The translations under genes were made by a program, and so were the position numbers. Shown here in pieces: positions 14,236 to 64,000 of a stretch of 64,000 nt of DNA. The DNA comes from a virus: UHGV virus genome UHGV-1364187; one strand, written 5' to 3'. Numbering within the stretch: position 1 is the stretch's first letter; each line of letters starts with the position of its first letter. The notes beneath the pieces were generated by a model. The model had not been told where the DNA came from, ran no database searches, and saw only the letters and a program-made list of their open reading frames with translations.

Positions 14236-15408
14236 TTACAATCTTGTCTTAAGAACTTCTAAAATCTTAAATTGTAAAGTTGATGGATTAATTAATTCAT
14301 CACCTCTCATATTTACAACATTATCAATATTTACTCCATAATTATTACACATACCAGATGCAGTTTCTTTATTAATCTTACCAATTTCAATATGGTAATC
14401 AAATCTACCATTTCTAAGTATAGCATCATCTAATTTATCTTTATAATTAGTAGTACCAATAAAGATACAATTATTTGGAGAGTTAATACCATCTAATACA
14501 TTAAGAAGATCACCAATTGTATCATATTTCATACTCTTCATATAATTATCAAATGGATTATATTGTTTATCTTTCTTATTATCATCTTTATCAGATCTTG
14601 TTCCTGTAGAACAATCTATATCTTCAAACAATATTACAGAATTAGTCATTCTTGAAATATTATTTATAAGATTATCATTAATATAATTAACTTTTATAAT
14701 TACTAATCTATATCCCATATAACTAGCAATAGCCTTAGCAAATGATGATTTACCAGTTCCAGGTTCTCCATATAATAGAATACCTATATTATGTTTTATT
14801 TGATGCTTTTTATAGATAAAGTCATCTTTCTTAAACTTCTCAAGTATATCTATAATCTGTTCTTTTTTGTCTGAGAATATATTATTCATTGAATATTTAT
14901 CATATTCATATTGATAAAAACTACCATTTTCTGAATATTGTCTAACATCTAATTTATTTACACTTTCTCCTCCTTTGTTTATATAATTAGTAATATATTC
15001 AAATTCTTGCTTCGCATTGACTCCACATATAGAAATATTTATTATATGATTACGAGAATCAGAAGCATCAAATGGAATATTACTAATTGTATATAAACAC
15101 TTATTATGCCATCCAGTGAAATGTAGATTAGAAGGTATATTATTGTCACTTGATGTTGATTTACTTTCATCTAAATATCTATTTGGTTTATAAAATTTAT
15201 TTAAATTTGGAAATAATTCATGCAAGACTTTACATGTATTGTTATAAGGTTCTAACCAAAACATATCATCAACTTGTATCTTATAACATATCTTTTGTTC
15301 AATTGATTTCTTCACTAATGGTGTAACTGTTCTTACAACACTATTTCCTAAGTTTGTTAATCCTGCTACTGCTGCTAATTTCATTAATTGTTTAACTTCT
15401 TTATTCAT
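14236..15408 (-). CDS. AAA+ ATPase, Bcs1-like classical AAA (paralogue 1)
   Basis: C-terminal AAA module: IGILLYGEPGTGKSSFAKAIA (Walker A), ILFEDIDCS (Walker B), IFIGTTNYKDKLDDAILRNGRFDYHIEIG (second region of homology); about 200-aa unique N-terminal domain. Confidence 0.75.
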   Translation of the reverse strand: MNKEVKQLMKLAAVAGLTNLGNSVVRTVTPLVKKSIEQKICYKIQVDDMFWLEPYNNTCKVLHELFPNLNKFYKPNRYLDESKSTSSDNNIPSNLHFTGWHNKCLYTISNIPFDASDSRNHIINISICGVNAKQEFEYITNYINKGGESVNKLDVRQYSENGSFYQYEYDKYSMNNIFSDKKEQIIDILEKFKKDDFIYKKHQIKHNIGILLYGEPGTGKSSFAKAIASYMGYRLVIIKVNYINDNLINNISRMTNSVILFEDIDCSTGTRSDKDDNKKDKQYNPFDNYMKSMKYDTIGDLLNVLDGINSPNNCIFIGTTNYKDKLDDAILRNGRFDYHIEIGKINKETASGMCNNYGVNIDNVVNMRGDELINPSTLQFKILEVLKTRL

Positions 15409-15622: not shown

Positions 15623-16498
15623 TTAATTTCTTTCACATAATAATTTTAATTGTAATTCACTTTGATTATATGGTGCTTCCATATCTTTAAGAATCTTATC
15701 TGGATCGGCACCAAAATATCTACACATATTTTCTGCAACTTCTCTATTATGTATTGGTTTAACTTCAAAGATCATATCAAATCTACCACTACGTAATAAA
15801 GCTTCATCTAATTTTTCTATATGATTCGTAGTAGCAATAAACATAACTTCTTCTTGAGAGTTAATACCATCCATTACATTTAACAATCCAGCGATATTAT
15901 TTTTATCTTCTACAACTTCCCCATTATCATTAACATTATTAGTTTTCTTATCTAAATATCTATCTATATCTTCAAATACATATATTGTTTCTTCGTATTT
16001 TGGGAGAGTTTTTAATTTAAATGGATCATTTACAGTAATAATACGTCTATTTGTATAATATGCTATAGCTTTGATAAGACTAGTTTTTCCTGTACCTGGT
16101 TCGCCATATAATAAAACTCCAGTCTTATGTATAATATGTTTTTCTTTATAAAAATCTGTATTTGAATTAAATTTGTCTATAAATTTAATAAGTGGTGATA
16201 TATCATCAAAGAATAATTCATCTAAAGATTTACAATATACACGATTAATTAAACCGTTTATAGTATTTGTATTACTATCAAATTCTTGAACATATACAGA
16301 ATTTGGTCTTGATTTAATAGGTGGATGATATTCATCAATTTCTTTAAAAATTTCCAATTTATTATGTCCTATAATATAAAACTTACACGTATTAAAATTT
16401 TTCATTACCTTATTGTCAGTACCTATAGTTTTGAATTCACTTTTTATATCAAATATAATATATGATGATTTATATATACATATATGAATACCGCTCAC
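15623..16498 (-). CDS. AAA+ ATPase, Bcs1-like classical AAA (paralogue 2)
   Basis: TGVLLYGEPGTGKTSLIKAIA, IYVFEDIDR, MFIATTNHIEKLDEALLRSGRFDMIFEV. Confidence 0.75.
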   Translation of the reverse strand: MSGIHICIYKSSYIIFDIKSEFKTIGTDNKVMKNFNTCKFYIIGHNKLEIFKEIDEYHPPIKSRPNSVYVQEFDSNTNTINGLINRVYCKSLDELFFDDISPLIKFIDKFNSNTDFYKEKHIIHKTGVLLYGEPGTGKTSLIKAIAYYTNRRIITVNDPFKLKTLPKYEETIYVFEDIDRYLDKKTNNVNDNGEVVEDKNNIAGLLNVMDGINSQEEVMFIATTNHIEKLDEALLRSGRFDMIFEVKPIHNREVAENMCRYFGADPDKILKDMEAPYNQSELQLKLLCERN

Positions 16499-16561
16499 TA
16501 TATTATTTATACATTGTATTTTTTATCGTATATAAACCCAACTTTTTCTAAATTATTCTTT

Positions 16562-16597
16562 GTATTATTTATACACCATATGATATATCTGTCAAGT
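16562..16597 (-). promoter_or_regulatory. host sigma-A-type promoter (TTGACA-17-ATAAAT with upstream TG)
   Basis: minus-strand text cTTGACAgatatatcatatggtgTATAAATaat about 65 nt upstream of the AAA+ paralogue 2 start. Confidence 0.4.
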
Positions 16598-16639
16598 TTA
16601 CATCCTGCTATATTACAAGTAATTAGATATTTGGATTTA

Positions 16640-16750
16640 ATAAGATTCAATGATTTTTTTACTTAACGTTTTTATTAAATGCTTACATGTTTCTTTAGTT
16701 AAATCCTTAGCTACTGATTTGATTAAAGTGCTTTTCTTTTTCATAATAGA
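16640..16750 (-). CDS. small basic protein (36 aa) not in the ORF track
   Basis: AAGGAGAGAT RBS then ATG 16750 (MKKKSTLIKSVAKDLTKETCKHLIKTLSKKIIESY); early-promoter motif 40 nt upstream. Confidence 0.4.
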
Positions 16751-16786
16751 ATCTCTCCTTTAAAATATATTATACTATTTTCATAT

Positions 16787-16810
16787 TTATAATATATAAT
16801 TGAAAAATAT
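16787..16810 (-). promoter_or_regulatory. early-promoter-like motif copy
   Basis: TATAATATATAATTGAAAAATAT directly downstream (minus sense) of the endolysin terminator. Confidence 0.5.
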
Positions 16811-16838
16811 ATTAGAAGAGTAAAAATACTCTTCTAAT
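16811..16838 (-). terminator. hairpin terminator after the endolysin gene
   Basis: attagaagagta/tactcttctaat. Confidence 0.6.
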
Positions 16839-16841
16839 ATA

Positions 16842-18026
16842 TTATAATTGTTTAAATGATCCTTCTTGAATATATCCACGTATATCTTTATATTTACATG
16901 CGTATACAGAAATACCATTTATAATTTGTTTCTTAGTAGATGTAAGGATAGTATCTCCTTTTTTACCAGTACATAAAATTTTAAGATCTTTATCTCTTAT
17001 ATTAGCACTGTTTACTAATACAGCATTATATCTTTCATCTATTCTTTCTACATATTGAGCATATACCCAACCTCTATCAGTTTTATACCATCCACCTTTT
17101 TCTTCTAAAAGACTAATAACTTCACCATTTTTATATGTTCCTACAATGGTAGCGTTTGTTGAAGGTGTTTGTCTTATATTTAAAGATGGTGCGGCTATAA
17201 CTTTACCTGTTGCACCTGTGATATTTAATGATGTTGAATTGTTAGTATTAGAATCATTCATTATATCTAAAGCTATATCTTTAGAATACTTAGAACTAGA
17301 AGACATGAATCCAGATACATTATCAACTTTAACTCTATACCACCCATCAACAGTTTCGTATACATTTAATTCTGTTCCTGTTGGTAAAGATTTAATGACA
17401 TCATATACTTGATTAGGTCCTTTTCTTATATTCATATTATCTATCAATTTTATTCTCTTATCGATAGAATCTTCTAATGCTACGTTTCTTCCATTCATCA
17501 TATCTTGATATAAATCTTGAACTTTTAATTTAAACTCTTTCCAAGCATTTATATCAGATATATAAAATGCTGGGCAATTCTTTCCAGTAATATCATAATG
17601 TCTATATACATCATTAATTGTAAGGTGATATTTCTTTAGAAGATATGCAGTTAACCAAGCAGTGTTTTCCATAACCTTACTAAAGTTTGAATCTTTATTA
17701 ACACACATCTCTATTGAAATTGTAGTATAGTTTGGTTGTAATCCATTATGAAATAATTTCTTTCCAGTAGCAGTATATGATTTAGCTCCTACTGACCATG
17801 CTACTTCATTATCTGGAATTGCTTGTAATATGATTGTATCATCTACTAAATACTGTGTACTTGCATAAGTCGTAGTAGTTTCGTAATAATTCCTATTAGC
17901 TCTAGCATTAGCACGATTACCATAATTAGCTGTGTAATGAATTACTATACCTTTTCTTATAGTGCATTTAGTCATAGGTCTATTCCTAGTACTTGTTAAT
18001 AAATCTTGTGTTATTGTTGTTACCAT
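16842..18026 (-). CDS. endolysin: N-acetylmuramoyl-L-alanine amidase (Amidase_2/PGRP) with two C-terminal SH3b domains
   Basis: N-terminal amidase region (IVIHYTANYGNRANARANRNYY...EMC...HYDITGKNCP) and two SH3-like repeats (GWYRVKVDNVSGFM; GGWYKTDRGWVYAQYV). Confidence 0.8.
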   Translation of the reverse strand: MVTTITQDLLTSTRNRPMTKCTIRKGIVIHYTANYGNRANARANRNYYETTTTYASTQYLVDDTIILQAIPDNEVAWSVGAKSYTATGKKLFHNGLQPNYTTISIEMCVNKDSNFSKVMENTAWLTAYLLKKYHLTINDVYRHYDITGKNCPAFYISDINAWKEFKLKVQDLYQDMMNGRNVALEDSIDKRIKLIDNMNIRKGPNQVYDVIKSLPTGTELNVYETVDGWYRVKVDNVSGFMSSSSKYSKDIALDIMNDSNTNNSTSLNITGATGKVIAAPSLNIRQTPSTNATIVGTYKNGEVISLLEEKGGWYKTDRGWVYAQYVERIDERYNAVLVNSANIRDKDLKILCTGKKGDTILTSTKKQIINGISVYACKYKDIRGYIQEGSFKQL

Positions 18027-29071: not shown

Positions 29072-30397
29072 ATGGAAATATCATATGGAAATAAAAGAGT
29101 TCTAAAAGTGTTTAGACAAGATAAATGTGTTAGTATTGGAATTCCTAAATCTAAATTATTACTTCATTTAGATAGTATAGGAATGGAGAATACTAAACTC
29201 GAGACTAGAAATAAATTCTATGATATAAGTGGAAATAATAATCATTTTAATCTATATAATTTCGATTTTAATGATGAAAATGGTTGGTTAGAAAATAACC
29301 TTCATTTTAATGGTGAAACTACATATATTGAGAATTATACATTTAATACTATAAATGTATATACTATATCTATATCTTTTCATGTCCCACCTAATGGTAA
29401 TTTTGCTGGATCATTTCCTGGTATAAATAAAGTATATACTAATAATGGAACTTTATATATCAATGTGTCAAGTAGTTCAAAAATATCATTAAATAGTGTA
29501 ATAAAACCAAACAAATTCTACAATCTCATTATGACATATGAAGCTGGAAGATTTACTGTATATCTTAATGGAGAGAAACGTAGAGTGTATAGTAATGTGA
29601 ATAAAGGATATGTAACTAATTTCTGTTTAGGTAGAAGTGTTGATTTTACATATGGAGAATTTATGTTACATTCAGTGCAATATTATTCCAAAGCATTAAC
29701 TGCACAAGAATTAAAAACGTTAAGTGATTTAGAACAAAAAAGATATATAGTATATTACGATAAGAATATGGTTATGGATGTAAGAGGGTATAACTCTATG
29801 CTAAAATACGGAGGATTTATTAGTATTAGAGATAATAGTATACATCATAATCACTTAAGATGTAGCAAATGGTATACACATTTTCCTAAAACTAGATCTT
29901 ATGCTATGACTGGAACAAATAGTATGAATATAGTTGGAAGACCTTTACTTATGGATTCATTCACACTAGAATTTGTAATAAGTCATATAAAATACATGTT
30001 TGCTGAAGAAGTATTTTTAATGGGTAAATATAAAAAAGGAGAATATGGTATAGAAATAACTCTTAATGTAAGAGGGTTAATCTTACGTATTCATGGTAAA
30101 ACTCAATTAGAATATTTATATCCTATAAATTATACAAATAAAAGAACTTCTATTAGTATAGTATATGATAGAAAGAATCAACAATTGATATTATATCATA
30201 ATGCTAATAGAGTTAAATTATTTGAGAATGTAGATTATATATCAAATATAAATGATATGACTATGAATTTCGCAAGAAAAGATGGATATTTCCCATTCAT
30301 TGGAAATATCTGTTGTATAAGAATGTATAATGAAGCTATATCTAGTTCATGTATCAATGATAATTATGAACAAGATATGGATATTTATAGACAATAG
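29072..30397 (+). CDS. LamG-like (concanavalin-A-type lectin/glucanase fold) domain protein, fibre-associated
   Basis: DISGNNNHFNLYNF...NGW...LHFNGETTYIEN motif typical of Laminin_G_3 jelly-roll domains; second similar module downstream. Confidence 0.5.
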   Translation: MEISYGNKRVLKVFRQDKCVSIGIPKSKLLLHLDSIGMENTKLETRNKFYDISGNNNHFNLYNFDFNDENGWLENNLHFNGETTYIENYTFNTINVYTISISFHVPPNGNFAGSFPGINKVYTNNGTLYINVSSSSKISLNSVIKPNKFYNLIMTYEAGRFTVYLNGEKRRVYSNVNKGYVTNFCLGRSVDFTYGEFMLHSVQYYSKALTAQELKTLSDLEQKRYIVYYDKNMVMDVRGYNSMLKYGGFISIRDNSIHHNHLRCSKWYTHFPKTRSYAMTGTNSMNIVGRPLLMDSFTLEFVISHIKYMFAEEVFLMGKYKKGEYGIEITLNVRGLILRIHGKTQLEYLYPINYTNKRTSISIVYDRKNQQLILYHNANRVKLFENVDYISNINDMTMNFARKDGYFPFIGNICCIRMYNEAISSSCINDNYEQDMDIYRQ

Positions 30398-40144: not shown

Positions 40145-40492
40145 TTAGAAGTGTTTCTGTTCTTTTATTCTCTTAATCTTCTCTAATTGTTCTTGAGAAT
40201 AGTTCTTTCTAGATAATCCAATAAGTGTATTAATATTAATAATAGTATCTCTTGAGTGGTTCATTGCTTTATTAAACATACCATTATTTCTAGAGATATA
40301 TAATGCATTTCTTGGATTAAGAACTTTAAATGCTTCTTCATAGAATGCTTTGTTATTAATTAGGAATATAGATAACGTATCACCATCAAAATCTGCAGCC
40401 ATAGTCTTTAAGATCTGTAATGGTAATGCCATTGTATATGTGTCTAATATTCCTACTACATGCATTTGTAAAATACTTCCATATGAAATTGT
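40145..40492 (-). CDS. rpoC-like: multisubunit RNA polymerase beta' N-terminal fragment, exon 2 (contains catalytic AADFDGD)
   Basis: PTISYGSILQMHVVGILDTYTMALPLQILKTMAADFDGDTLSIF aligns with bacterial beta' [43 protein letters not shown]. Confidence 0.7.
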   Translation of the reverse strand, partial: TISYGSILQMHVVGILDTYTMALPLQILKTMAADFDGDTLSIFLINNKAFYEEAFKVLNPRNALYISRNNGMFNKAMNHSRDTIININTLIGLSRKNYSQEQLEKIKRIKEQKHF

Positions 40493-40986
40493 AGGCTCCG
40501 TCTTCACATAGAGTCGTGACTTCTATGCAGTTCTCTTATGAACTTCTATGAGTATTACTCATAAGGAGAGACTATATCTTCATCTTTTACTATTCTTATA
40601 TTATTTCAAATATAAGATACTACTAGCAGTCAGATGCCTTGCACTTCGGATATACTATATCCTACTCTACTCACTTCGTCTATATCTAATTTATTAGATA
40701 TACCTTATTTTTAACTAGATTACTAGTATATTAGCTTTCGATAGTCGTTGAACCTTCTCCTATATAATTTATATAAGAGCTTGGCTGCTGATTGGACATT
40801 GTTTGTTACTTGGCACGATACTTAGGCTCTCACCATATATCATCTTAATGATTATTTCTGTCTTTCGACTGCCATTCACGCTTACCTGTTACAGTTACGT
40901 TGTAGCTCATTAAGCATTAGCCCTTCCCAGACAAGTTCACAAGGTTTTTCTCCGTACATTTCTGTAGGGAGGACCCATCCACAAAT
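40493..40986 (-). mobile_element. group I self-splicing intron (ORF-less, about 0.49 kb, T4 td-like core) interrupting the beta' gene; boundaries approximate
   Basis: minus-strand P, Q, R and S core elements found in canonical order (coordinates in the intron finding); less AT-rich than flanks; stop codon of the upstream ORF lies inside it. Confidence 0.7.
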
Positions 40987-42147
40987 AGGTCGATTTATTA
41001 AAATAGGTATACCTTGACCGTCATCTATTAAAGATTGAATAATATTTCTAACTCTTTGGTCTTCTTGAATAGTGGCATAATACCAAATATTATGTGCTTC
41101 ATCATAAGACATATTATAAGATTTTACTAAAACATTTATAATTCTCTGTTCTAATAATCCTACTAATGCAAAGTATGATAATTTTACTTGGTCTACTTTT
41201 AATGTATCATCTGGAATGATTACACATCTAGAAGAGAAGTTAAATCTTCCTCCGAATACTCCTCTAAATATACCTTTCTTTCCAGATAATATATTTTCAA
41301 CTTCAGCATAAACTTTATTAAGTTTATATTGTAAATCGTATAATAATTGTAATTTAGGTTTCTTCTTTCTATGAATACGTAATGTATTCATATTGATATC
41401 ATGAACTAATTTTACAATCATATTATACAATCCATTAATATCGTTGAATACAAAGTTTCCACCATCAAGTTTGAATGGTCTTAATAGTGTCGTAAATATT
41501 GGTATAGAATGAGTAAATATCTTATCTTTATTCTCTAACAAATCAAGATAAGTATCAGTCTTAGCTTTCTTATTAGAAGAATTATTGTAATAATAATCTA
41601 AAACTGTTTCAAAGTTATCTCTTAACCATAATATACCTTTTCCTTTATATGGTTCATCTTTAACTTGTTTATTTTCTTCTATTGTAAATCCATCTTCATT
41701 CTTATTGTCTATTGGTTTTATGATATTATAAAGTTTCTCTGTTCCAATAATAGTCTCTAATTCTTTATATAGATTAGGATGGATTATACAATATTCATCT
41801 TTCAATACTGTCCAACCAAATAAGTCATAATTATCATCAACAAACTTTACTTTAGTATTACATATAGGACATGTCATGCCATTATTAATTTTACCCATAG
41901 TGTAACCACATGAACATTTATATTTGTTAATGAACGGGTTAGAGTCATTTAATGTAGAACCAAATCTAGTACTAAAAATACCATTTGGTTCTTTTAAATC
42001 CTTCTTAATGTTTTGATGTTGAAAGATAATGAACCCGTTACCAGTACGAAGATCATTATCTTTCTCTTTATCCAAGTCAATTCTTTCTAGTAATGTTTCA
42101 ACTTTAAATAAATTTCCAAGTTCATCTACAAGATGTGGATAATTCAT
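40987..42147 (-). CDS. rpoC-like: multisubunit RNA polymerase beta' N-terminal fragment, exon 1 (zinc-binding region)
   Basis: CSCGYTMGKINNGMTCPICNTKV zinc finger; ...PILINRP joins exon 2 (TISYG...) to restore the conserved LNR(A)PT(L)H...NADFDGD segment. Confidence 0.65.
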
Positions 42148-42689: not shown

Positions 42690-43622
42690 CTATTCACATC
42701 CTTTATCAAAATACTTTCCTTTATAATAATTGCCAATTTTTATTGTATCTAAATTATATTCTGTGCATTTTTTACCGACAGTCAATCTAATATTTTTCTT
42801 ATGTAAAAGTTCTTCTGTTATTCCGATAGAATTCATATCTTCTTCAAAGTTAGTAAATGTTAACCATCTTTCACATATAGTATGTTCACTACACCATTCA
42901 GTATTATATACCATATATATTAATCTTGACCATTTTATATATAGTCTATTTTTGTTTTTATCACTAATAACTCTTCCTGTAGATGCTATACCACCACATA
43001 TGTTTTTATAAGTATGATCTATAACTTTTCCATTGTCCACACATCCAATATTATATTCTGTTTCATATCCAGATATTAAGAATTTTATTTTACACATTGT
43101 TATTTTTGTTCCATTTTTATTACGTGTACTATATGTTGAAGTTACAATGAATTCTAATCCATCTTTACTTGTATGAATTGTGGATTCAACAGTATTTAAT
43201 CTTTGTTTTGAATCTGAAATAGAACCATTTGTTATATTGCTTCTTGTGACATAATATATATTCTTAGATTCAATAAATTGTATTTTGTAATTACTACTTT
43301 GCGTATTATGTATCATCTTATATTTCTCATCCATATCCAATACTTTAAATTCTAATCCGTCATTATTTTTAAATATTTTACCTATAATATTTGATTTGTT
43401 ACATGGTCTATTGTATGTCTTATCTACTGCTAAATTATGCATTATTATATATCTTGATGCTTCGGTTTCATAATCAGTTTCTATAAATCTTATATTATAA
43501 TAATGATTATTATTTCCATCATATATACATCCAAGATGTTTTAATACAATAAATCTTCTTCCATATTTTCCTTCAAATTCTTTTCCAATGATATCGTTAT
43601 ACTCTACTACACTTCTTCCCAT
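42690..43622 (-). CDS. hypothetical protein with three about 55-aa internal repeats (ORF to 43682; likely start MGRSVVEY after AAAGGAGAG)
   Basis: repeats G(K/L)EF.VL...Y.I.F.E. Confidence 0.4.
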   Translation of the reverse strand: MGRSVVEYNDIIGKEFEGKYGRRFIVLKHLGCIYDGNNNHYYNIRFIETDYETEASRYIIMHNLAVDKTYNRPCNKSNIIGKIFKNNDGLEFKVLDMDEKYKMIHNTQSSNYKIQFIESKNIYYVTRSNITNGSISDSKQRLNTVESTIHTSKDGLEFIVTSTYSTRNKNGTKITMCKIKFLISGYETEYNIGCVDNGKVIDHTYKNICGGIASTGRVISDKNKNRLYIKWSRLIYMVYNTEWCSEHTICERWLTFTNFEEDMNSIGITEELLHKKNIRLTVGKKCTEYNLDTIKIGNYYKGKYFDKGCE

Positions 43623-43660
43623 TATAATACACTCTCCTTTAGTATTATTAAATATATACT

Positions 43661-43689
43661 CACATATATAATATATAATCAAAATGAAT
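43661..43689 (-). promoter_or_regulatory. early-promoter-like motif (AATCAAAAT variant)
   Basis: CACATATATAATATATAATCAAAATGAAT next to terminator 43686-43721. Confidence 0.45.
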
Positions 43690-43864: not shown

Positions 43865-45052
43865 CTATACTACATTTTTATGTGTTCTATATTTTACAAT
43901 ATCACTTATAGTACTAATATTATATCCAGTACTATATTTTATTTCAGTTAGTGTCATACCCTCTTGTTCATACATTCTTCTTATATCTCTTACAATATCA
44001 TCTGTTATACTTCTTCCAGGAGCATTGGATAAATCATATTGTTCATATATATCTCTATGTGCTCTACCGCTAGTAATATTCACAATAGTTTTTCTATTTA
44101 TATCAAGATGATGTGATATCATTGTTGGAGTATATCCATTGGAAAACAATATCATTATATTATGCACATCTTCATCTGTAATCTTAGTTGGAACATAAGC
44201 ATTAGATAAATCGTATTGATTTCTAATATCTAAATGTTTCTTTCCACCATATACAATATTAGTTACAGTTTTTCTATTTAAATTTAATTCATCTGCAATC
44301 TGATATGCTTGATACCCTTGAGAATATAATCTAAATATATCATGTAAAGTATCTTCTGGAAGTAATCTTGTAACTTGATCTAATTCTAATTCTTCATATA
44401 CATCTTTATGGCTAGAACCACATGATATATTTCTTACATTAACATATGAAACTCCAGTTTTTTCTGCAATTTCTTTAAGAGATAATGTTGTATCCTTAAT
44501 AAGATTACCAACTTCATAAGCTTTCTCTTTAGATATACATATAGCTTCTACTTCTGGTCTTAATTCTTCATATGAATGATGAACATTTTCTAATGGAGTA
44601 GCCCATTCAAGATTACATAACCAATTACACCATGTACAACCATTTATATGATTGACTTGATATTGTTCTGGATTTTCTATTGGAAGAAATGTCATCATTA
44701 CTAATCTATGAACAAAGTATATATGTTTCTTTCCATCAAGACATGATAATCCAACTCGTAGATATCCTTTATCTGTAGATTGTTGTTGCATGAATACATT
44801 ATTAAGTAATGAGAATATTCTTCCGTAATTACTTACCATATATCTTCCAGGAACAATTTCTTCTGAATTTATAAATACAAATATTTCATCTGGAGCCATA
44901 AGTGGGATATATGTATATTCTTGTTGATAATTTGAAAATTGTTCTGGTATATAATTTGGTGGTAGTTCTTTTCCAGTCTTAGAAATATATGCTGGAATTA
45001 TTAAATTTTTGATTTCTTGTCCTTCTTTATACTCTTTGTTTTTGTAATACAT
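43865..45052 (-). CDS. HNH homing endonuclease with NUMOD-like DNA-binding repeats
   Basis: HNH_3 core VHRLVMMTFLPIENPEQYQVNHINGCTWCNWLCNLEWATPLENVHHS; NUMOD4-like N-terminus; four repeated helix motifs (e.g. YQIADELNLNRKTVTNIVYG). Confidence 0.7.
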   Translation of the reverse strand: MYYKNKEYKEGQEIKNLIIPAYISKTGKELPPNYIPEQFSNYQQEYTYIPLMAPDEIFVFINSEEIVPGRYMVSNYGRIFSLLNNVFMQQQSTDKGYLRVGLSCLDGKKHIYFVHRLVMMTFLPIENPEQYQVNHINGCTWCNWLCNLEWATPLENVHHSYEELRPEVEAICISKEKAYEVGNLIKDTTLSLKEIAEKTGVSYVNVRNISCGSSHKDVYEELELDQVTRLLPEDTLHDIFRLYSQGYQAYQIADELNLNRKTVTNIVYGGKKHLDIRNQYDLSNAYVPTKITDEDVHNIMILFSNGYTPTMISHHLDINRKTIVNITSGRAHRDIYEQYDLSNAPGRSITDDIVRDIRRMYEQEGMTLTEIKYSTGYNISTISDIVKYRTHKNVV

Positions 45053-45128: not shown

Positions 45129-46382
45129 CTAGTTTATATTTAATATTCCAAATGCATCATTTAACATATCAGTAATGTCAGTAGTTTTAACAACACTATT
45201 ATGAAACGCTTTTAAGCTTCTTTGTTTGGTTGTTGAAGCGATTTTGCTCATAGCCATACCTATATGGGCTATACCTATTCTTCTAAATAGACTACTACCA
45301 CATACCTCACATATATCTTCACCTTCACATAATGCAGCGAATCTAAGATTAACAGTTTTATCTATAAATTGATTCTTTGTATCTGAAGTAATTTCAATTA
45401 CTTTATCTCCTTGTTGGACAAAACAATACATATATTGTTTAATATTCTTCTTTGTTAATTTAACTCTAATTGTACGTTTCGTTTTACAATCACTTCCCTT
45501 AGGAGAAATAGAAATATGTTGAAATCCACTGAATAATAATTTCTCCCAATATCCACCAATTTGAGTTTTGATAGCTCTCGCTGTTGCTCCAGGTGCAATA
45601 GAGTTAGCAAATATATGATAATCCTCTTTAGATATACCATCCATATAACATGATGTAGCTATATCATATTTACCTGTTACGTTATTATATACAGCACCTT
45701 TCATCATACACATATTCTTTAAGTTATTTTCAATATTACCTCTGGCTTTACAATCAAAGATTTCCATCGCATCATCATCTTTTAATATTTCTTTTGTTTG
45801 TGCTATTAATTGATTAGAAATATCTTCTGCTACAACTTCATCACCATCTTCAAGAGCTTTCTTATTCTCTTTAATAAGTTTAGTCTTTAATGGCTTAAGT
45901 TTATCTGATAAAGATAATATAGCATCATCATAATGAGCTGCTAATACTGTAGTTAATCTCATTAGTATTTGTGACTTTAATAAGAAATGTTTTAATGCAT
46001 CTAATGGTACTTTATCTTCCAATCTAGCATATGTAATATCAGATACAATATCATTAAATACATCATCATCTACAGAATAATTTATATACTTTTCTAATTC
46101 AAATAGTTCTTTCTCTATACATAGTCTATTAAATATCCATAACCCTACAGTAGTTGTAAATTCATTCTTATTTCTCTTTCCTTCAGGACCATAAGAATTT
46201 GGTGGAATTTTAATATAATTAAATGGTTCAAATCTTCTTTTATTGTTAAACTTTCCAAGTAATTCTATAATAAGACTTATAGTTAAATCTTTTTCTTCTA
46301 AAGATAATAGATAATCTATATCTTCTTGTTTTGTTATAAACACACCATCTTTTACTTTAGGCATATTATAATCTCCTTTCAT
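45129..46382 (-). CDS. rpoC-like: multisubunit RNA polymerase beta' C-terminal fragment (bridge helix + trigger loop)
   Basis: ATARAIKTQIGGYWEKLLF aligns with bridge helix DTALKTANSGYLTRRLV; KQRSLKAFHNS aligns with trigger-loop QLTMRTFH; ends with an ITDMLNDAFG (LPRVAELFEAR-like) helix. Confidence 0.5.
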   Translation of the reverse strand: MKGDYNMPKVKDGVFITKQEDIDYLLSLEEKDLTISLIIELLGKFNNKRRFEPFNYIKIPPNSYGPEGKRNKNEFTTTVGLWIFNRLCIEKELFELEKYINYSVDDDVFNDIVSDITYARLEDKVPLDALKHFLLKSQILMRLTTVLAAHYDDAILSLSDKLKPLKTKLIKENKKALEDGDEVVAEDISNQLIAQTKEILKDDDAMEIFDCKARGNIENNLKNMCMMKGAVYNNVTGKYDIATSCYMDGISKEDYHIFANSIAPGATARAIKTQIGGYWEKLLFSGFQHISISPKGSDCKTKRTIRVKLTKKNIKQYMYCFVQQGDKVIEITSDTKNQFIDKTVNLRFAALCEGEDICEVCGSSLFRRIGIAHIGMAMSKIASTTKQRSLKAFHNSVVKTTDITDMLNDAFGILNIN

Positions 46383-46454: not shown

Positions 46455-46910
46455 TTATTCGATTACTAATTTAGATTTAACAATAGTAATTGCTAATTCT
46501 TTATCTTTAAAAATCATCGGTAAGATATCTTTACCATCATATACTCTAAAGTCAGGTCCACATAATTCTGTAACGATTCCTTTGATTGCTGGAAGTATAT
46601 ACTTTTCTCTAGCAATATATCCATCATCGTAAGATTCAATCATCTTTACAATCTTTTGTCTTTGAATTGTATTTTCAACTTTACCATTTGTTGGTAATTG
46701 TTTTACCAATTTCTTAATATCGATAAGTGTTTTAAGAGGATTAGTTCTAAATAATTCCTCTGTAATCTTTTCTGCTTCTGTTTCTTTAAATCCTTCTGGA
46801 TTGAATAATGATACCTTTTTATTTGTTCTTTCTGTTTCCATAATTCTAATACCCTCCATAATTGCACCTAATAATTCTACTTCTTCTTGTGTGAATGCTT
46901 TTACTATCAT
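46455..46910 (-). CDS. hypothetical protein
   Basis: 151 aa; AAAGGAG RBS; promoter motif upstream. Confidence 0.45.
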   Translation of the reverse strand: MIVKAFTQEEVELLGAIMEGIRIMETERTNKKVSLFNPEGFKETEAEKITEELFRTNPLKTLIDIKKLVKQLPTNGKVENTIQRQKIVKMIESYDDGYIAREKYILPAIKGIVTELCGPDFRVYDGKDILPMIFKDKELAITIVKSKLVIE

Positions 46911-46952
46911 TTTTAAACAACTCCTTTAATATTATTATTGTATTATTTACAC

Positions 46953-46978
46953 TATTATAATATATAAGTGAAATATTA
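46953..46978 (-). promoter_or_regulatory. early-promoter-like motif (variant)
   Basis: CTATTATAATATATAAGTGAAATATT 43-65 nt upstream of ATG 46910. Confidence 0.4.
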
Positions 46979-46996
46979 GACTTTTACATAATATAA

Positions 46997-47036
46997 TAAC
47001 ACACTAAGTCACATAGGGGATGAGCTTAGTGTGTTA
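46997..47036 (-). terminator. hairpin
   Basis: taacacactaag/cttagtgtgtta with 16-nt loop. Confidence 0.45.
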
Positions 47037-47686
47037 TTAATTTGGTAGATTGATGGTTAAGCAAGCAAAGTGGATTGTTTGCTAAAAAAATAGTGTTTTT
47101 TTGGAGTAAGACAATATTTGATATTACTTTGTATTTTGGGATTTGACTTAAGACAAATACTTGTCTCAAATATATGTTATTATATTTTAAAAGTTTAATA
47201 TCCACCATAGATTTTACTCTATGGTGGATATACACACAAAAAAGGAAAGAAGAAAAAGAAAAAAAGTTTTAATATGGTTTACTAATATGTTATATTGTAT
47301 AAAAAGATAAAAACCTATACTATTATAGTATAGGTTTTTACAAATAAATTTAAAAGGAGATTGCTTAATACAAAAAGACTTATATCCCGATGGATTATAT
47401 ATATATGTTTATAATAAAAAAATAAGATAAGCCATAATAGCTTATCTTATTTTTCAAAAGAATTGTAGAGTTAAAAAAACAGCTAATTTAATATATAAAG
47501 GATTATTTATATGTTTATTAAAATTTAAACCTTAATAATCTCAGCTTGTATTATCATATTTTTATCTTCAGAATAATATATAATTAAAAAATTAGACCAT
47601 ACTATAAAAAGTATGGTCTAATTTAATATGTTTAGAACATTAATATAATAAAATAACGAAAAAATAAACTATAACCAGTAGAGTTC

Positions 47687-48523
47687 CTAATAGAAGCAGA
47701 GATAAGTTATATCAAGGCTCTTTGTATATTCGTTAAGTGGTTCGCTTGGAAAATGAAGAACCGTTAATGGTCTGATGGATTCATAATATATATACCCATT
47801 AATTTCGTGTTTATACCCAGTTAATAATGAAATAGCATTAATTTTTGCAGTATCTAATCCAGTTGTAGATGCAAACCATTCTCTACAATCATCTACTGTA
47901 ATTTTCAATTTCAATTGAACAAATGATTCAATCTCTAAAGTATTAGTTGAATCAAATACATTAGCATCAATAGGAGTACCGTCAACATATCTTTGAATAA
48001 GTTCTGGTTCTGTATCAAATGCTTTAAAATAATAAGCAATTTTTCCATTAGTAAGTGCTCTACCAAAATATCTAGTTCTATCTAAATCTGATAGATCATT
48101 AGGTGGAGTAATATATCTAAATGGAACTAAATCACTAGGTTTAATCCATTTTGAATAATCAACATCATATACTTGATGTTGTTCTTGTCCACATCCACCG
48201 ACACCAACAGCAAATAGACAAACTACTTCATCTCTTCTAACTCCAGGTTCTGGGTTAGGAGTATTTAAAGTGTTTTCTAATCCCAATACCGTATTATACG
48301 ATGGTGTTCTTGTTGGCACATCAATATTATAATGTTTCATCATAGTAAATGCTGAACCTGATACAATGACTTTATTATGTAAGCCTTGATGTAATACATT
48401 TCCTAAACCATCTTTAATAGTGATTAATGATCCAGGACGTTGTATATTAGCTTTATCTGCATTACGAACAGCATCTGATAAAATTCGCATTTGTTCTTGT
48501 TGTTCATCTGTAGGAATAGCCAT
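47687..48523 (-). CDS. hypothetical protein (possibly structural)
   Basis: 278 aa. Confidence 0.45.
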   Translation of the reverse strand: MAIPTDEQQEQMRILSDAVRNADKANIQRPGSLITIKDGLGNVLHQGLHNKVIVSGSAFTMMKHYNIDVPTRTPSYNTVLGLENTLNTPNPEPGVRRDEVVCLFAVGVGGCGQEQHQVYDVDYSKWIKPSDLVPFRYITPPNDLSDLDRTRYFGRALTNGKIAYYFKAFDTEPELIQRYVDGTPIDANVFDSTNTLEIESFVQLKLKITVDDCREWFASTTGLDTAKINAISLLTGYKHEINGYIYYESIRPLTVLHFPSEPLNEYTKSLDITYLCFY

Positions 48524-63124: not shown

Positions 63125-63811
63125 ATGAATAAAGTACAAGAGTTTATTTTCAACAATCTAGGAAGCGTTAGAATTATACCATCCGAGAATGGTAACCAAA
63201 TTGACACACTATTCTGTGCCAAAGATGTAGCATCTATTTTAGGGTACAGTAACACAAAAGATGCAATTTTAAGACATTGTAAGGGGGTCGTGAAACACGA
63301 CCTCCCTTCAAATGGAGGAAATCAATTAACAAACTTTATTAAACTTCCAGATGTATTCAATCTTATTTATGGATCTAAAATGCCTTTCGCTGAAGAGTTT
63401 AAAGATTGGATCTCTTATGAATTATTACCATCTATTTATATGAATGGTAGCTATACAGATCAAAATCATGATCCAAATTTCAAATTACCAAATACAATAT
63501 ACAATAGTGCAACAGATACATATGATCTAGCACAAAATGTAGATAGTGAATTTGAAATTCCGTGGAATGAAGAAACTTTAAACCAATTCCCAGAATGTAT
63601 GAGAAGATATCAACAAAATCCAAATATTCAATTAAATAAACATGATTCTATGATGTTATATGGTGTAAATCTTATGATGAATGAATATCAACAAAGACAT
63701 TTTGAGTATACAATAAATATAATTAACCAATTACAAAATCAAATCAATCAAATGCAACAAGATGTAAATAAAGTCAAACAATTAATCGTTCCAGTAACAA
63801 TTGAAAAATAA
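63125..63811 (+). CDS. Bro-N domain protein, paralogue 2
   Basis: N-terminal about 120 aa roughly 85% identical at DNA level to the 21355 gene (MNKVQEFIFNNLGSVRIIPSENGNQIDTLFCAKDVASILGYS...); C-terminal LIVPVTIEK. Confidence 0.65.
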   Translation: MNKVQEFIFNNLGSVRIIPSENGNQIDTLFCAKDVASILGYSNTKDAILRHCKGVVKHDLPSNGGNQLTNFIKLPDVFNLIYGSKMPFAEEFKDWISYELLPSIYMNGSYTDQNHDPNFKLPNTIYNSATDTYDLAQNVDSEFEIPWNEETLNQFPECMRRYQQNPNIQLNKHDSMMLYGVNLMMNEYQQRHFEYTINIINQLQNQINQMQQDVNKVKQLIVPVTIEK

Positions 63812-63835
63812 TATAGTTCATAGGAGATGATTTTA

Positions 63836-64000
63836 TGTTAGTATTAGGAAAATTCGATTATGTATATTCAGATCAACAAAAAGATGCATTAAGAAACGCA
63901 ATTACTAATAATATTGAAGTTGGTGATATTAAAAATCCAGGCATTCCATTGAATCTTATGGAAACATATATTGAACTTAGGTCTTATGGGTATGATATTG
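63836..64000 (+). CDS. hypothetical protein, 5' partial (runs off window)
   Basis: GGAG RBS then ATG 63836 MLVLGKFDYVYSDQQ... Confidence 0.35.

What the first reader, a model, noticed from the sequence alone, without database searches (positions are those of the whole stretch)
40145..42147. Split multisubunit RNAP beta' gene interrupted by an ORF-less group I intron
The upstream ORF encodes the beta' zinc finger and ends ...PILINRP before running into a stop. 490 nt further on, the next ORF encodes PTISYGSILQMHVV...AADFDGD, the universally conserved catalytic loop. Joining them restores the contiguous beta' segment. The intervening minus-strand RNA contains the group I core elements in the correct order: P (GUCUGGGAAGGG, 40921-40932), Q (AAUCAGCAGCC, about 40780-40793), R (GUUCAACGACUA, 40741-40754) and S (AAGAUAUAGUCU, 40568-40580). 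The S element is identical to that of the T4 td intron. Exact splice sites are ambiguous because CCU occurs at both junctions. The enzyme itself is of the unusual phage type, with beta' encoded as separate N- and C-terminal polypeptides.
Basis: partly seen in the sequence, partly recalled or inferred. Interest (0 to 1): 0.65.

Follow-up and report, generated by a model that had tools for sequence, protein, structure and literature searches.

The report
Group I intron in phage RNA-polymerase gene
A 491-base RNA element of the self-splicing type (a group I intron with no gene inside it) interrupts the catalytic-subunit gene of a giant gut phage's own RNA polymerase; the call is correct, but such introns are already known in giant-phage polymerase genes.

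Summary
On the minus strand, exon 1 (42147..40987) ends at ...INRP and exon 2 (40495..40145) begins PTISYGS...AADFDGD. The 491 nt between them (40986..40496) is a group I intron of the phage IA type. Rfam RF00028 matches end to end at 40.4 bits, E = 1e-8. That is below the gathering score of 50, and both window-scale Rfam scans miss it. The 5' splice site follows a U paired with G in P1, and the intron ends in G. A hand-built P1-P9 structure with the P3/P7 pseudoknot is 98% paired across three same-site introns, and 19 pairs show compensatory changes. A P5 extension carries a canonical 11-nt GAAA-tetraloop receptor. Uninterrupted orthologues (79% identical) read ...NRPPTISYGS..., exactly the predicted spliced product. 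The intron has no endonuclease gene. The host gene is the N-terminal beta' subunit of an AR9-like non-virion RNA polymerase, on a 256-kb gut-metagenome phage contig. In AR9 the orthologous gene g270 is annotated as a two-piece CDS enclosing the HNH gene g271, about 35 codons downstream of this site. PhiPA3 also has an intron in an RNAP gene. This is therefore a new member, at a new insertion site, of a known kind. Splicing itself is inferred, not shown.

The parts
40987..42147 (-). Exon 1 of the non-virion RNAP beta' N-terminal subunit gene (387 codons, ATG at 42147, AAGGAG Shine-Dalgarno upstream). It encodes the zinc finger CSC-x12-CPIC and ends ...ILINRP (CCU at 40989..40987).
40496..40986 (-). 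ORF-less group I intron, 491 nt, 35.6% GC against 26.4% for the window. Intron position n corresponds to window coordinate 40987-n.
   Evidence: Rfam RF00028 40.4 bits, E 1.1e-8, model 1-253; structure and covariation; junction from orthologues
40145..40495 (-). Exon 2 (116 codons plus stop). It begins CCU ACA (PTISYGS...) and contains the catalytic AADFDGD. There is no Shine-Dalgarno and no ATG of its own.
40972..40991 (-). P1. Exon GACCU (40991..40987) plus intron AUU pair with the internal guide GAUGGGUC (intron 8-15). The U(-1)-G11 wobble marks the 5' splice site after 40987.
   Evidence: The U-G pair is conserved in all three same-site introns.
40950..40971 (-). P2 hairpin (intron 16-37) capped by a GAAA tetraloop (25-28)
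   Evidence: 3 pairs with compensatory changes
40938..40944 (-). P3 5' strand (intron 43-49); pairs with 40643..40637 (intron 344-350)
40920..40934 (-). P4 and P5 5' strands including the 'P' element (intron 53-67). They pair with 40797..40785 (intron 190-202), which includes the 'Q' element.
40798..40919 (-). P5 extension (intron 68-189; helix names are mine). An 8-bp helix P5a leads to a three-way junction with hairpins P5b and P5c (GAAA loop at 121-124). It is followed by hairpin P5d, which carries a canonical 11-nt tetraloop receptor: UAUGG at 150-154 and CCUAAG at 161-166.
   Evidence: 5 of the 8 P5a pairs are compensatory
40753..40784 (-). P6/P6a hairpin (intron 203-234)
40742..40753 (-). 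'R' element GUUCAACGACUA. GACUA (intron 241-245) is the 5' strand of P7, preceded by a bulged C240. G241-C417 is the candidate guanosine-binding pair.
   Evidence: identical to the T4 nrdB intron
40644..40741 (-). Peripheral insert between P7 and P3' (the P7.1/P7.2 region typical of subgroup IA), containing the conserved GAAGUGAGUAGAGUA. It is about 40 nt longer than in the L008 intron. The detailed pairing was not resolved.
   Evidence: the same motif occurs in the AR9 g270 intron
40581..40636 (-). P8 with a long extension (intron 351-406)
40569..40580 (-). 'S' element AAGAUAUAGUCU. UAGUC (intron 413-417) is the 3' strand of P7, which forms a pseudoknot with P3.
40496..40563 (-). P9 (intron 424-440), two further hairpins (444-457 and 460-480), and a tail ending in the terminal G491 at 40496. 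The 3' splice site follows that G.
   Evidence: Intronless orthologues fix the exon 2 start.
40882..40884 (-). In-frame TAA that ends the 34-codon read-through from exon 1 into the intron. It lies inside the P5 extension.

Best explanation
The gene for the N-terminal beta' polypeptide of this jumbo phage's non-virion multisubunit RNA polymerase is interrupted by a 491-nt ORF-less group I intron of the phage IA type. The intron sits between the second and third codons of the conserved NRP|PT motif, 34 codons upstream of the catalytic DFDGD.

Inferred mechanism, following the standard group I pathway:
1. The primary transcript folds into P1-P9, with the P3/P7 pseudoknot. The fold is stabilised by GAAA-tetraloop/11-nt-receptor contacts from an unusually large P5 extension.
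2. An exogenous guanosine bound at P7 attacks after U(-1), at the U-G wobble of P1.
3. The freed exon 1 then attacks after the terminal G491. A short P10 (exon 2 CUACA with intron UGUGG) helps position this step.
4. The result is an mRNA encoding a contiguous 503-aa beta'N (...ILINRP-PTISYGS...AADFDGD...).

Shown here: the RNA family match, the conserved and covarying structure, the splice-site nucleotides, the exact match of the predicted product to uninterrupted orthologues, and the absence of an intron ORF.
Inferred: that splicing occurs and is autocatalytic. Also inferred: that the intron arrived by homing and later lost its endonuclease gene, or never carried one.
For: RNA family match:
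- Rfam Intron_gpI matches the full model 1-253 at 40.4 bits, E = 1.1e-8, over 40996..40546 (-).
- RNAalifold on the window plus L008 independently recovers P1, P2, P3, P4, P5, P6, P8 and P9, with 16 compensatory pairs.
- The hand structure with P7 has 97 pairs. 98% of cells are paired and 19 pairs change on both sides. No shuffle out of 500 reaches these values, and slid controls give 0-3 such pairs.
- MFE z-score is -2.6.

Junction:
- The spliced protein hits phrog_2987 as one stretch, residues 60-477, E = 6e-56.
- It aligns without a gap to phiR1-37 g274 and Goe21 rpoC_2 across the junction.
- Intronless orthologues P0001 (79% identity) and P0003 read NRPPTISYGS and NRPPTIAYGS.

Same-site introns and spread:
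- Related introns sit at the identical site in L008 (405 nt) and L009.
- All three intron-bearing alleles keep exon GACCU to pair with the guide GGGUC. The intronless allele L010 has CGCCCU there.
- The intron is 100% identical in three other ENA assemblies. A fourth contig ends inside it and matches perfectly over the 342 nt it holds.

No independent expression of exon 2:
- Exon 2 has a GTG start and no Shine-Dalgarno. 40 of the 56 ORFs of at least 100 aa that I scored in the window have one.

Kinship and precedent:
- blastn links the intervening sequence to stretches in Staphylococcus, Listeria and Bacillus phage genomes, most of them unannotated there.
- The R-plus-GAAA motif is found in more than 119 IMG/VR contigs.
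- AR9 g270 is annotated as a two-piece joined CDS that encloses the HNH gene g271, and its intervening DNA has the same group I core motifs.
- PhiPA3 has an RNAP-gene intron (PMC11620839).
Against: - The Rfam score is below the curated gathering threshold (40.4 against 50). Both window-scale scans report nothing.
- There are no RNA data, so splicing is inferred.
- Covariation rests on only three sequences, one of them partial, and the structure was derived from these same sequences.
- Exon 1 translation runs 34 codons into the intron, through P1-P5. This could interfere with folding if transcription and translation are coupled.
- The P7.1/P7.2 region and P10 were assigned by eye only.
Confidence: 0.93

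Rival explanations
1. Gene fission: the two ORFs are translated as separate polypeptides, giving a further split of beta', and the spacer RNA is not removed.
For: Phage multisubunit RNAPs of this type are already split into N- and C-terminal polypeptides (annotation; PMC5312081). A GTG-initiated ORF covering exon 2 does exist.
Against: - The exon 2 ORF has no Shine-Dalgarno and no ATG, while most genes here have AAGGAG.
- The break would fall inside the conserved NRPPT motif.
- Of the 120 best homologue clusters, 117 are contiguous at 498-555 aa.
- The spacer is a complete, covarying group I ribozyme.
- The 34 read-through codons are not conserved between relatives. The stop comes after about 19 codons in L008 and 6 in L009.
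Confidence: 0.03
2. Decayed intron or pseudogene: the intron can no longer splice and the gene is dead in this metagenome-assembled phage.
For: - The score is below the Rfam gathering threshold.
- There is no homing endonuclease.
- There are large peripheral insertions.
- P5c has an A-A mismatch in the window copy.
Against: - All core helices form standard pairs in the window copy.
- Compensatory changes against L008 and L009 indicate selection on the fold.
- The tetraloop and receptor motifs are intact.
- Both exons remain open and 79% identical to intact orthologues.
- The identical sequence recurs in three other assemblies, plus a truncated fourth.
- The gene encodes the catalytic loop of a polymerase that AR9-type phages depend on (PMC5312081).
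Confidence: 0.03
3. A different kind of intervening element: a group II intron, an intein, or a translational bypass or recoding site.
For: AR9 also carries group II introns (my recollection of the abstract of Lavysh et al. 2016, Virology; that paper was not read here).
Against: - Within the 901-nt scan the only hit better than E = 1 is Intron_gpI.
- An in-frame stop after 34 codons rules out an intein.
- 491 nt is too short for a group II intron (my own knowledge of that family, not tested here).
Confidence: 0.01

Closest known systems
Intervening sequence in Bacillus phage AR9 g270 (non-virion RNAP beta' N-terminal subunit), which encloses the HNH endonuclease gene g271
   Same: - Same (orthologous) host gene; tblastn gives 30% identity.
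- Its DNA shows the same core motifs: UUGUCUGGGAAG, CAGCAGCCAAG, GGUUCAACGACUAUCGAAA and GAAGUGAGUAGAGUA.
- Same kind of phage, with an AR9/phiKZ-type split RNAP.
- The neighbourhood is similar: a g264-like vRNAP subunit gene followed by a free-standing endonuclease gene.
   Different: - The AR9 insert lies inside the DYDG|D catalytic codons, about 35 codons downstream of the site used here.
- It encloses an HNH homing endonuclease ORF, whereas this intron has none.
- This intron has a roughly 120-nt P5 extension with an 11-nt receptor. I did not map the corresponding part of the AR9 insert.
T4 nrdB and td introns (annotated 'group 1A' in the T4 record); Staphylococcus phage introns of the Twort-like group are linked only by blastn similarity
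   Same: - Core sequence elements: R is identical to T4 nrdB, and S matches T4 td at 11 of 12 bases.
- There is a peripheral insert between P7 and P3'.
- The intron interrupts an essential gene next to active-site residues.
- blastn finds similarity to stretches of Staphylococcus phage genomes.
   Different: - The host gene is a polymerase subunit rather than a nucleotide-metabolism gene.
- It has no endonuclease ORF; td carries I-TevI and nrdB carries I-TevIII.
- It has large P5 and P8 extensions.
PhiPA3 gp210 intron in the virion RNAP beta-subunit gene (Birkholz et al. 2024, PMC11620839)
   Same: A putative group I intron interrupting a jumbo-phage multisubunit RNAP gene at strongly conserved residues.
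   Different: - A different subunit (beta of the virion RNAP) and a different phage lineage.
- It carries an HNH endonuclease shown to nick a competitor's gene. No endonuclease is present here, so no such weapon function can be assumed.

Membership tests
Group I intron (Rfam RF00028) | Match to the covariance model at or above the curated gathering score (50 bits) | tested here: not met
   40.4 bits, E = 1.1e-8, full model 1-253. There are no hits at window scale. The shortfall comes from two roughly 100-nt insertions (the P5 extension and P7.1/P7.2) and a divergent P8. The E-value is still far beyond chance.
Group I intron (Rfam RF00028) | Core helices P3-P9 in canonical order, with the P4-P6 and P3-P7-P8-P9 domains and the P3/P7 pseudoknot | tested here: met
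   All helices form standard pairs in the window. 98% of cells are paired and 19 pairs are compensatory across three same-site introns; slid controls give 0-3. P7 itself is invariant, so it is uninformative for covariation.
Group I intron (Rfam RF00028) | 5' splice site after a U that forms a U-G wobble in P1 with an internal guide sequence | tested here: met
   U at 40987 pairs with G11. The U-G pair is kept in all three introns.
Group I intron (Rfam RF00028) | The intron ends in G (omega-G), and excision restores the reading frame | tested here: met
   G491 lies at 40496. The joined product NRP|PTISYGS equals the intronless orthologues P0001 and P0003. The L008 intron also ends in G.
Group I intron (Rfam RF00028) | Guanosine-dependent self-splicing | not testable with these tools
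   This needs in vitro transcription with GTP, or RT-PCR or RNA-seq from infected cells.
Subgroup IA (phage td/nrdB type) | Extra helices P7.1/P7.2 between the 5' strand of P7 and the 3' strand of P3 | tested here: inconclusive
   A 98-nt insert sits at exactly this place and carries motifs shared with the AR9 g270 insert. R is identical to the T4 nrdB 'group 1A' intron. The pairing of the insert was not resolved, and no subgroup-specific model was run.
Mobile (homing) group I intron | An intron-encoded homing endonuclease | tested here: not met
   The intron holds no meaningful ORF, only a 49-aa antisense ORF. The nearest endonuclease gene is free-standing, 2.9 kb upstream. It does not co-occur with the intron in relatives.
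AR9/phiKZ-type non-virion RNAP beta' N-terminal subunit | Homology to AR9 gp270 / phrog_2987, a zinc finger, the catalytic DFDGD, and termination shortly after it (split beta') | tested here: met
   phrog_2987 at E = 6e-56, against 7.5e-12 for the paralogous phrog_2986. tblastn hits AR9 g270, MarsHill 'non-viral RNA polymerase beta-prime subunit' and phiR1-37 g274. DFDGD lies at residues 422-426 of 503. Orthologues are 498-555 aa. The beta' C-terminal partner was not looked for.

The most novel reading that the evidence does not exclude
The ORF-less intron might be mobilised in trans, or protected from a competitor, by the free-standing NUMOD4-HNH endonuclease encoded 2.9 kb upstream (43865-45052). 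That gene lies between the two RNAP subunit genes. This would be a case of 'collaborative homing', the proposed route by which free-standing endonucleases and ORF-less introns become mobile introns (a concept recalled from my own knowledge of cyanophage and T-even phage work, not checked here). It would occur in a polymerase gene where intron endonucleases are known to act as weapons between co-infecting jumbo phages.
Probability: 0.05. Interest if true: 0.5.

Novelty: new member of a known kind. Interest (0 to 1): 0.25.

Why it matters
For annotation: gene callers split this essential gene into a 421-aa ORF with a spurious 34-residue tail and an orphan 106-aa or 120-aa ORF. The public assemblies and the protein database carry it that way. 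Standard Rfam scanning does not flag the intron.

For biology, the finding adds three things:
- a second, distinct intron insertion site in the non-virion RNAP beta'N gene of AR9-like jumbo phages;
- an intron-plus/intron-minus series (window, L008 and L009 against P0001 and P0003) that could be used to study intron gain and loss in gut jumbo phages;
- a compact ribozyme with a textbook tetraloop receptor.

It does not change what is known about group I introns or phage polymerases.

Tried and rejected
- Whole-window Rfam scans (gathering; E-value mode) found nothing. This is a filter effect, not evidence of absence.
- The search for related loci with the spliced protein in IMG/VR found no relative.
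- DNA pattern scans for the P5-extension motif found nothing in IMG/VR or JGI metagenomes. The close relatives came from the protein-cluster route instead.
- I looked for further introns in the window. There is no second close R or S element. Small-window Rfam scans of two suspicious gaps, 46880-47720 and 16300-17000, gave only chance-level hits. There are no tRNAs.
- I tested whether the neighbouring HNH endonuclease travels with the intron. It does not. A homologue's C-terminus lies upstream of the intron-minus allele L010, and none lies within 2.5 kb of the intron-plus loci L008 and L009.
- I tried to explain the N-terminally short AAA+ ORF at 15623-16498 by finding its missing N-terminus in the upstream gap. 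No convincing similarity turned up.
- A literature search for the S-element string found nothing. The T4 comparison was done directly on the T4 record instead.
- I did not build my own covariance model. The intron, at 491 nt, exceeds the practical size limit, and the case did not need it.
Full report
**1. What is in the sequence**

The window has 26.4% G+C. It is part of a 256.5-kb contig from an ENA metagenome assembly, ERZ27229639.

On the minus strand, an ORF runs from 42147 to 40882 (421 aa) and a second from 40507 to 40145 (120 aa, GTG start). The first carries a beta'-type zinc finger (CSC-x12-CPIC). Its similarity to RNA polymerase beta' ends at ...GIPILINRP. It then reads 34 further codons, ICGWVLPTEMYGEKPCELVWEGLMLNELQRNCNR, to a TAA at 40884..40882. 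The second ORF contains PTISYGSILQMHVV...AADFDGD.

Pfam sees RNA_pol_Rpb1_2 split across the two ORFs. Profile positions 1-62 match the first and 106-163 match the second.

- P at 40932..40921;
- Q at 40793..40783;
- R at 40753..40742;
- S at 40580..40570.

The exact R and S strings are each unique in the window.

**2. Is it a group I intron?**

A routine Rfam scan of the whole window finds nothing, either at gathering thresholds or in E-value mode. Scanning only 40300-41200 gives Intron_gpI (RF00028) at 40.4 bits and E = 1.1e-8, from model position 1 to 253, at 40996..40546 on the minus strand.

The score is under the curated 50 bits. This is because the alignment has to absorb two insertions of about 100 nt each, one in P5 and one between P7 and P3', and because P8 fits the model poorly. 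The conserved joining segments match almost letter for letter: AAUCAGCAGCCAA, GGUUCAACGACUA and GAUGAAGAUAUAGUCU.

**3. Splice sites**

I number the intron from the base after exon 1, so position n corresponds to window coordinate 40987-n.

- P1 pairs exon GACCU plus intron AUU with GAUGGGUC (positions 8-15). This puts the U at 40987 in a U-G wobble with G11.
- The intron ends in G491 at 40496.
- Joining 40987 to 40495 keeps the frame and gives a 503-aa protein reading ...ILINRP-PTISYGSILQM...AADFDGD....
- That protein hits phrog_2987 ('RNA polymerase beta subunit') in one uninterrupted stretch, residues 60-477, E = 6e-56.
- It aligns without a gap across the junction to phiR1-37 g274 (NRNPSINIGS) and Goe21 rpoC_2 (NRNPTISIGS).

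The decisive evidence comes from the protein database. It holds uninterrupted orthologues of 503 and 504 aa, 79% and 77% identical, that read ...VLINRPPTISYGSILQM... and ...IINRPPTIAYGSILQM... (P0001 and P0003).

So both CCU codons are retained, and the splice sites are not ambiguous.

By eye, exon 2 positions +2 to +6 (CUACA) can pair with intron positions 4-8 (UGUGG) as a P10. The L008 relative has CAAC with GUUG in the corresponding place.

**4. Relatives with an intron at the same site, and covariation**

Among the 120 best homologue clusters, three are truncated at NRP: P0002 (the window's own ORF), P0005 and P0006. Their contigs show the following:
- L008 has a 405-nt intron at the identical codon boundary, with a U-G wobble and a terminal G. 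Its spliced product is 505 aa.
- L009 has a third intron, with a roughly 57-nt insertion in the P1 loop. Its contig ends inside the intron.

All three intron-bearing alleles have exon GACCU opposite the guide GGGUC. The intronless allele L010 has CGCCCU there.

RNAalifold on the window plus L008, with no guidance, recovers P1, P2, P3, P4, P5, P6, P8 and P9. It finds 16 pairs changed on both sides.

I then wrote out a structure that adds P7 as a pseudoknot with P3. It has 97 pairs in 17 helices, and every pair but one (A117-A128 in P5c) is a standard pair in the window copy. On the three-sequence alignment:
- 98.0% of cells pair, against 91.1% in shuffles;
- 19 pairs show changes on both sides, against 7.7 in shuffles;
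- no shuffle out of 500 reaches any of these measures;
- sliding the 3' partners by 1-3 columns drops pairing to 34-44% and compensatory pairs to 0-3.

Caveats: there are only three sequences, one is partial, and the structure was derived from these same sequences. The MFE z-score of the intron is -2.6.

**5. Anatomy**

The helix names in the P5 extension are my own.

- P2 (16-37) is capped by a GAAA tetraloop.
- The P5 extension (68-189) consists of an 8-bp helix, in which 5 of the 8 pairs are compensatory across the three introns. It leads to a three-way junction with two hairpins, one capped by GAAA (121-124).
- A further hairpin follows whose internal loop is the canonical 11-nt GAAA-tetraloop receptor: UAUGG at 150-154 and CCUAAG at 161-166.
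- P7 is GACUA (241-245) paired with UAGUC (413-417), with C240 bulged. This makes G241-C417 the candidate guanosine-binding pair.
- Between P7 and P3' lie 98 nt containing GAAGUGAGUAGAGUA, the position of P7.1/P7.2 in subgroup IA. I did not resolve its pairing.
- After P9 there are two more hairpins before the 3' splice site.
- The only ORF of at least 40 aa that starts inside the intron is a 49-aa antisense ORF. There is no homing endonuclease gene.

**6. Kinship of the intron**

- blastn links parts of it to Staphylococcus phage genomes (812, phiIPLA-RODI and others), Listeria phage LPJP1, Staphylococcus jumbo phages LY01 and MarsHill, and Enterocloster, Thomasclavelia and Lactococcus phages. 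Most of these stretches carry no annotation there.
- The motif GTTCAACGACTATCGAAA occurs in more than 119 IMG/VR contigs, among them contigs whose lengths equal those of the AR9 and phiR1-37 genomes.
- Similarity to those contigs is modular rather than end to end.
- The R element is identical to that of the T4 nrdB intron.

**7. The host gene and its setting**

The best phage matches of the spliced protein are phiR1-37 g274 ('RpoC, N-terminus'), Goe21 rpoC_2, BpSp, AR9/PBS1 g270, and Staphylococcus jumbo phage 'non-viral RNA polymerase beta-prime subunit' genes. AR9 gp270 is a subunit of the non-virion RNAP (PMC5312081).

The protein ends 77 residues after DFDGD, as its orthologues do at 498-555 aa. 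It is therefore the N-terminal half of a split beta'.

On the minus strand, the genes upstream of it, nearest first, are:
- a MazG-like 157-aa gene;
- a repeat-containing 330-aa gene;
- a free-standing NUMOD4-HNH endonuclease with HTH repeats (43865-45052);
- a homologue of AR9 g264, a virion-RNAP subunit.

AR9 has a 'Hef-like' endonuclease gene, g265, at the corresponding place after g264.

**8. Why splicing rather than two polypeptides**

- Exon 2 has no ATG and no Shine-Dalgarno. Of the 56 ORFs of at least 100 aa that I scored, 40 have one, usually AAGGAG.
- The break lies inside a conserved motif.
- 117 of the 120 best homologue clusters are contiguous.
- The read-through peptide is not conserved. 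The stop comes after 34, about 19 and 6 codons in the three introns.
- The RNA structure is under selection.
- The intron is base-for-base identical in three other assemblies, and in the 342 nt held by a fourth, truncated contig.

Splicing itself, and whether it is autocatalytic, remain inferences.

**9. Comparison with what is known**

- In AR9, the orthologous gene g270 is annotated as a two-piece CDS that encloses the HNH gene g271.
- By alignment to the intronless Goe21 allele, the AR9 insert sits inside the DYDG|D codons, about 35 codons downstream of the site used here. It carries the same core motifs.
- AR9 g189, another RNAP subunit gene, also contains an intron (PMC5312081).
- PhiPA3 has a putative group I intron with an HNH endonuclease in a virion-RNAP beta gene. 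That endonuclease acts against the co-infecting phage PhiKZ (PMC11620839; reviewed in PMC12908238).

The present case is therefore a new member of a known kind. What is new is the insertion site (NRP|PT), the lack of an ORF and the large receptor-bearing P5 extension.

**10. The one more adventurous reading**

The neighbouring free-standing HNH endonuclease might mobilise the ORF-less intron in trans. My check does not support this. A homologue of that endonuclease lies upstream of the intron-minus allele L010, and none is found within 2.5 kb of the intron-plus loci L008 and L009. I give this reading about 5%.

**Verdict**

The biology is ordinary for phages of this type. The main value is for annotation and as an intron-plus/intron-minus comparative series.

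Noticed in passing
window 43865-45052 (-): A free-standing 395-aa NUMOD4 + HNH_3 endonuclease with several C-terminal helix-turn-helix repeats. It is 37% identical, over 105 aa, to the HNH encoded inside AR9 g270 (g271). It lies between the g264-like virion-RNAP subunit gene and the intron-bearing gene, and AR9 has a 'Hef-like' endonuclease gene at the syntenic position. It does not co-occur with the intron in relatives.
   Followed up: partly
window 42690-43682 (-); also L010 254-1962, L008 3-722, L009 22-1756: A 330-aa ORF with internal repeats (GKxFxxxxGxxFxVL-like). It has no Pfam or PHROG family. Relatives carry several tandem paralogous copies at the same position upstream of the polymerase gene.
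   Followed up: partly
window 46911-47686: A 777-nt spacer between two minus-strand genes with no credible ORF. It is packed with stem-loops followed by T runs (terminator-like). Only chance-level Rfam hits were found.
   Followed up: partly
window 15623-16498 (-) and 14236-15408 (-): Tandem paralogous AAA+ ATPase genes (phrog_7485). The upstream copy starts with GTG, has no Shine-Dalgarno, and begins at profile position 112, so it lacks about 90 N-terminal residues that its neighbour has. A 344-nt ORF-poor gap precedes it. No intron signal or recoverable N-terminus was found. It may be a truncated or frameshifted gene.
   Followed up: partly
window 45129-46382 (-): A homologue (32% identity) of AR9 g264, a virion-RNAP subunit, uninterrupted here. 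The listed ATG has no Shine-Dalgarno. The ATG six codons downstream is preceded by AAGGAG and is the likelier start.
   Followed up: partly
window 40496-40986 (-), whole-window Rfam scans: A methodological point. Rfam at gathering threshold, and even in E-value mode over 64 kb, reports nothing. The same intron scores E = 1e-8 when 901 nt are scanned. Phage introns with long peripheral insertions are easily missed by routine scans.
   Followed up: yes
window 40508-40580 (-); Thomasclavelia phages TR-TP1 (63765-63838) and TR-TP2 (29388-29461): The 3' end of the intron (S element to P9.2) is 82-84% identical to unannotated stretches in Thomasclavelia, Enterococcus, Vibrio and Staphylococcus phages. 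The 5' and middle parts match other phages. This suggests a modular or mosaic relationship among phage group I introns.
   Followed up: no
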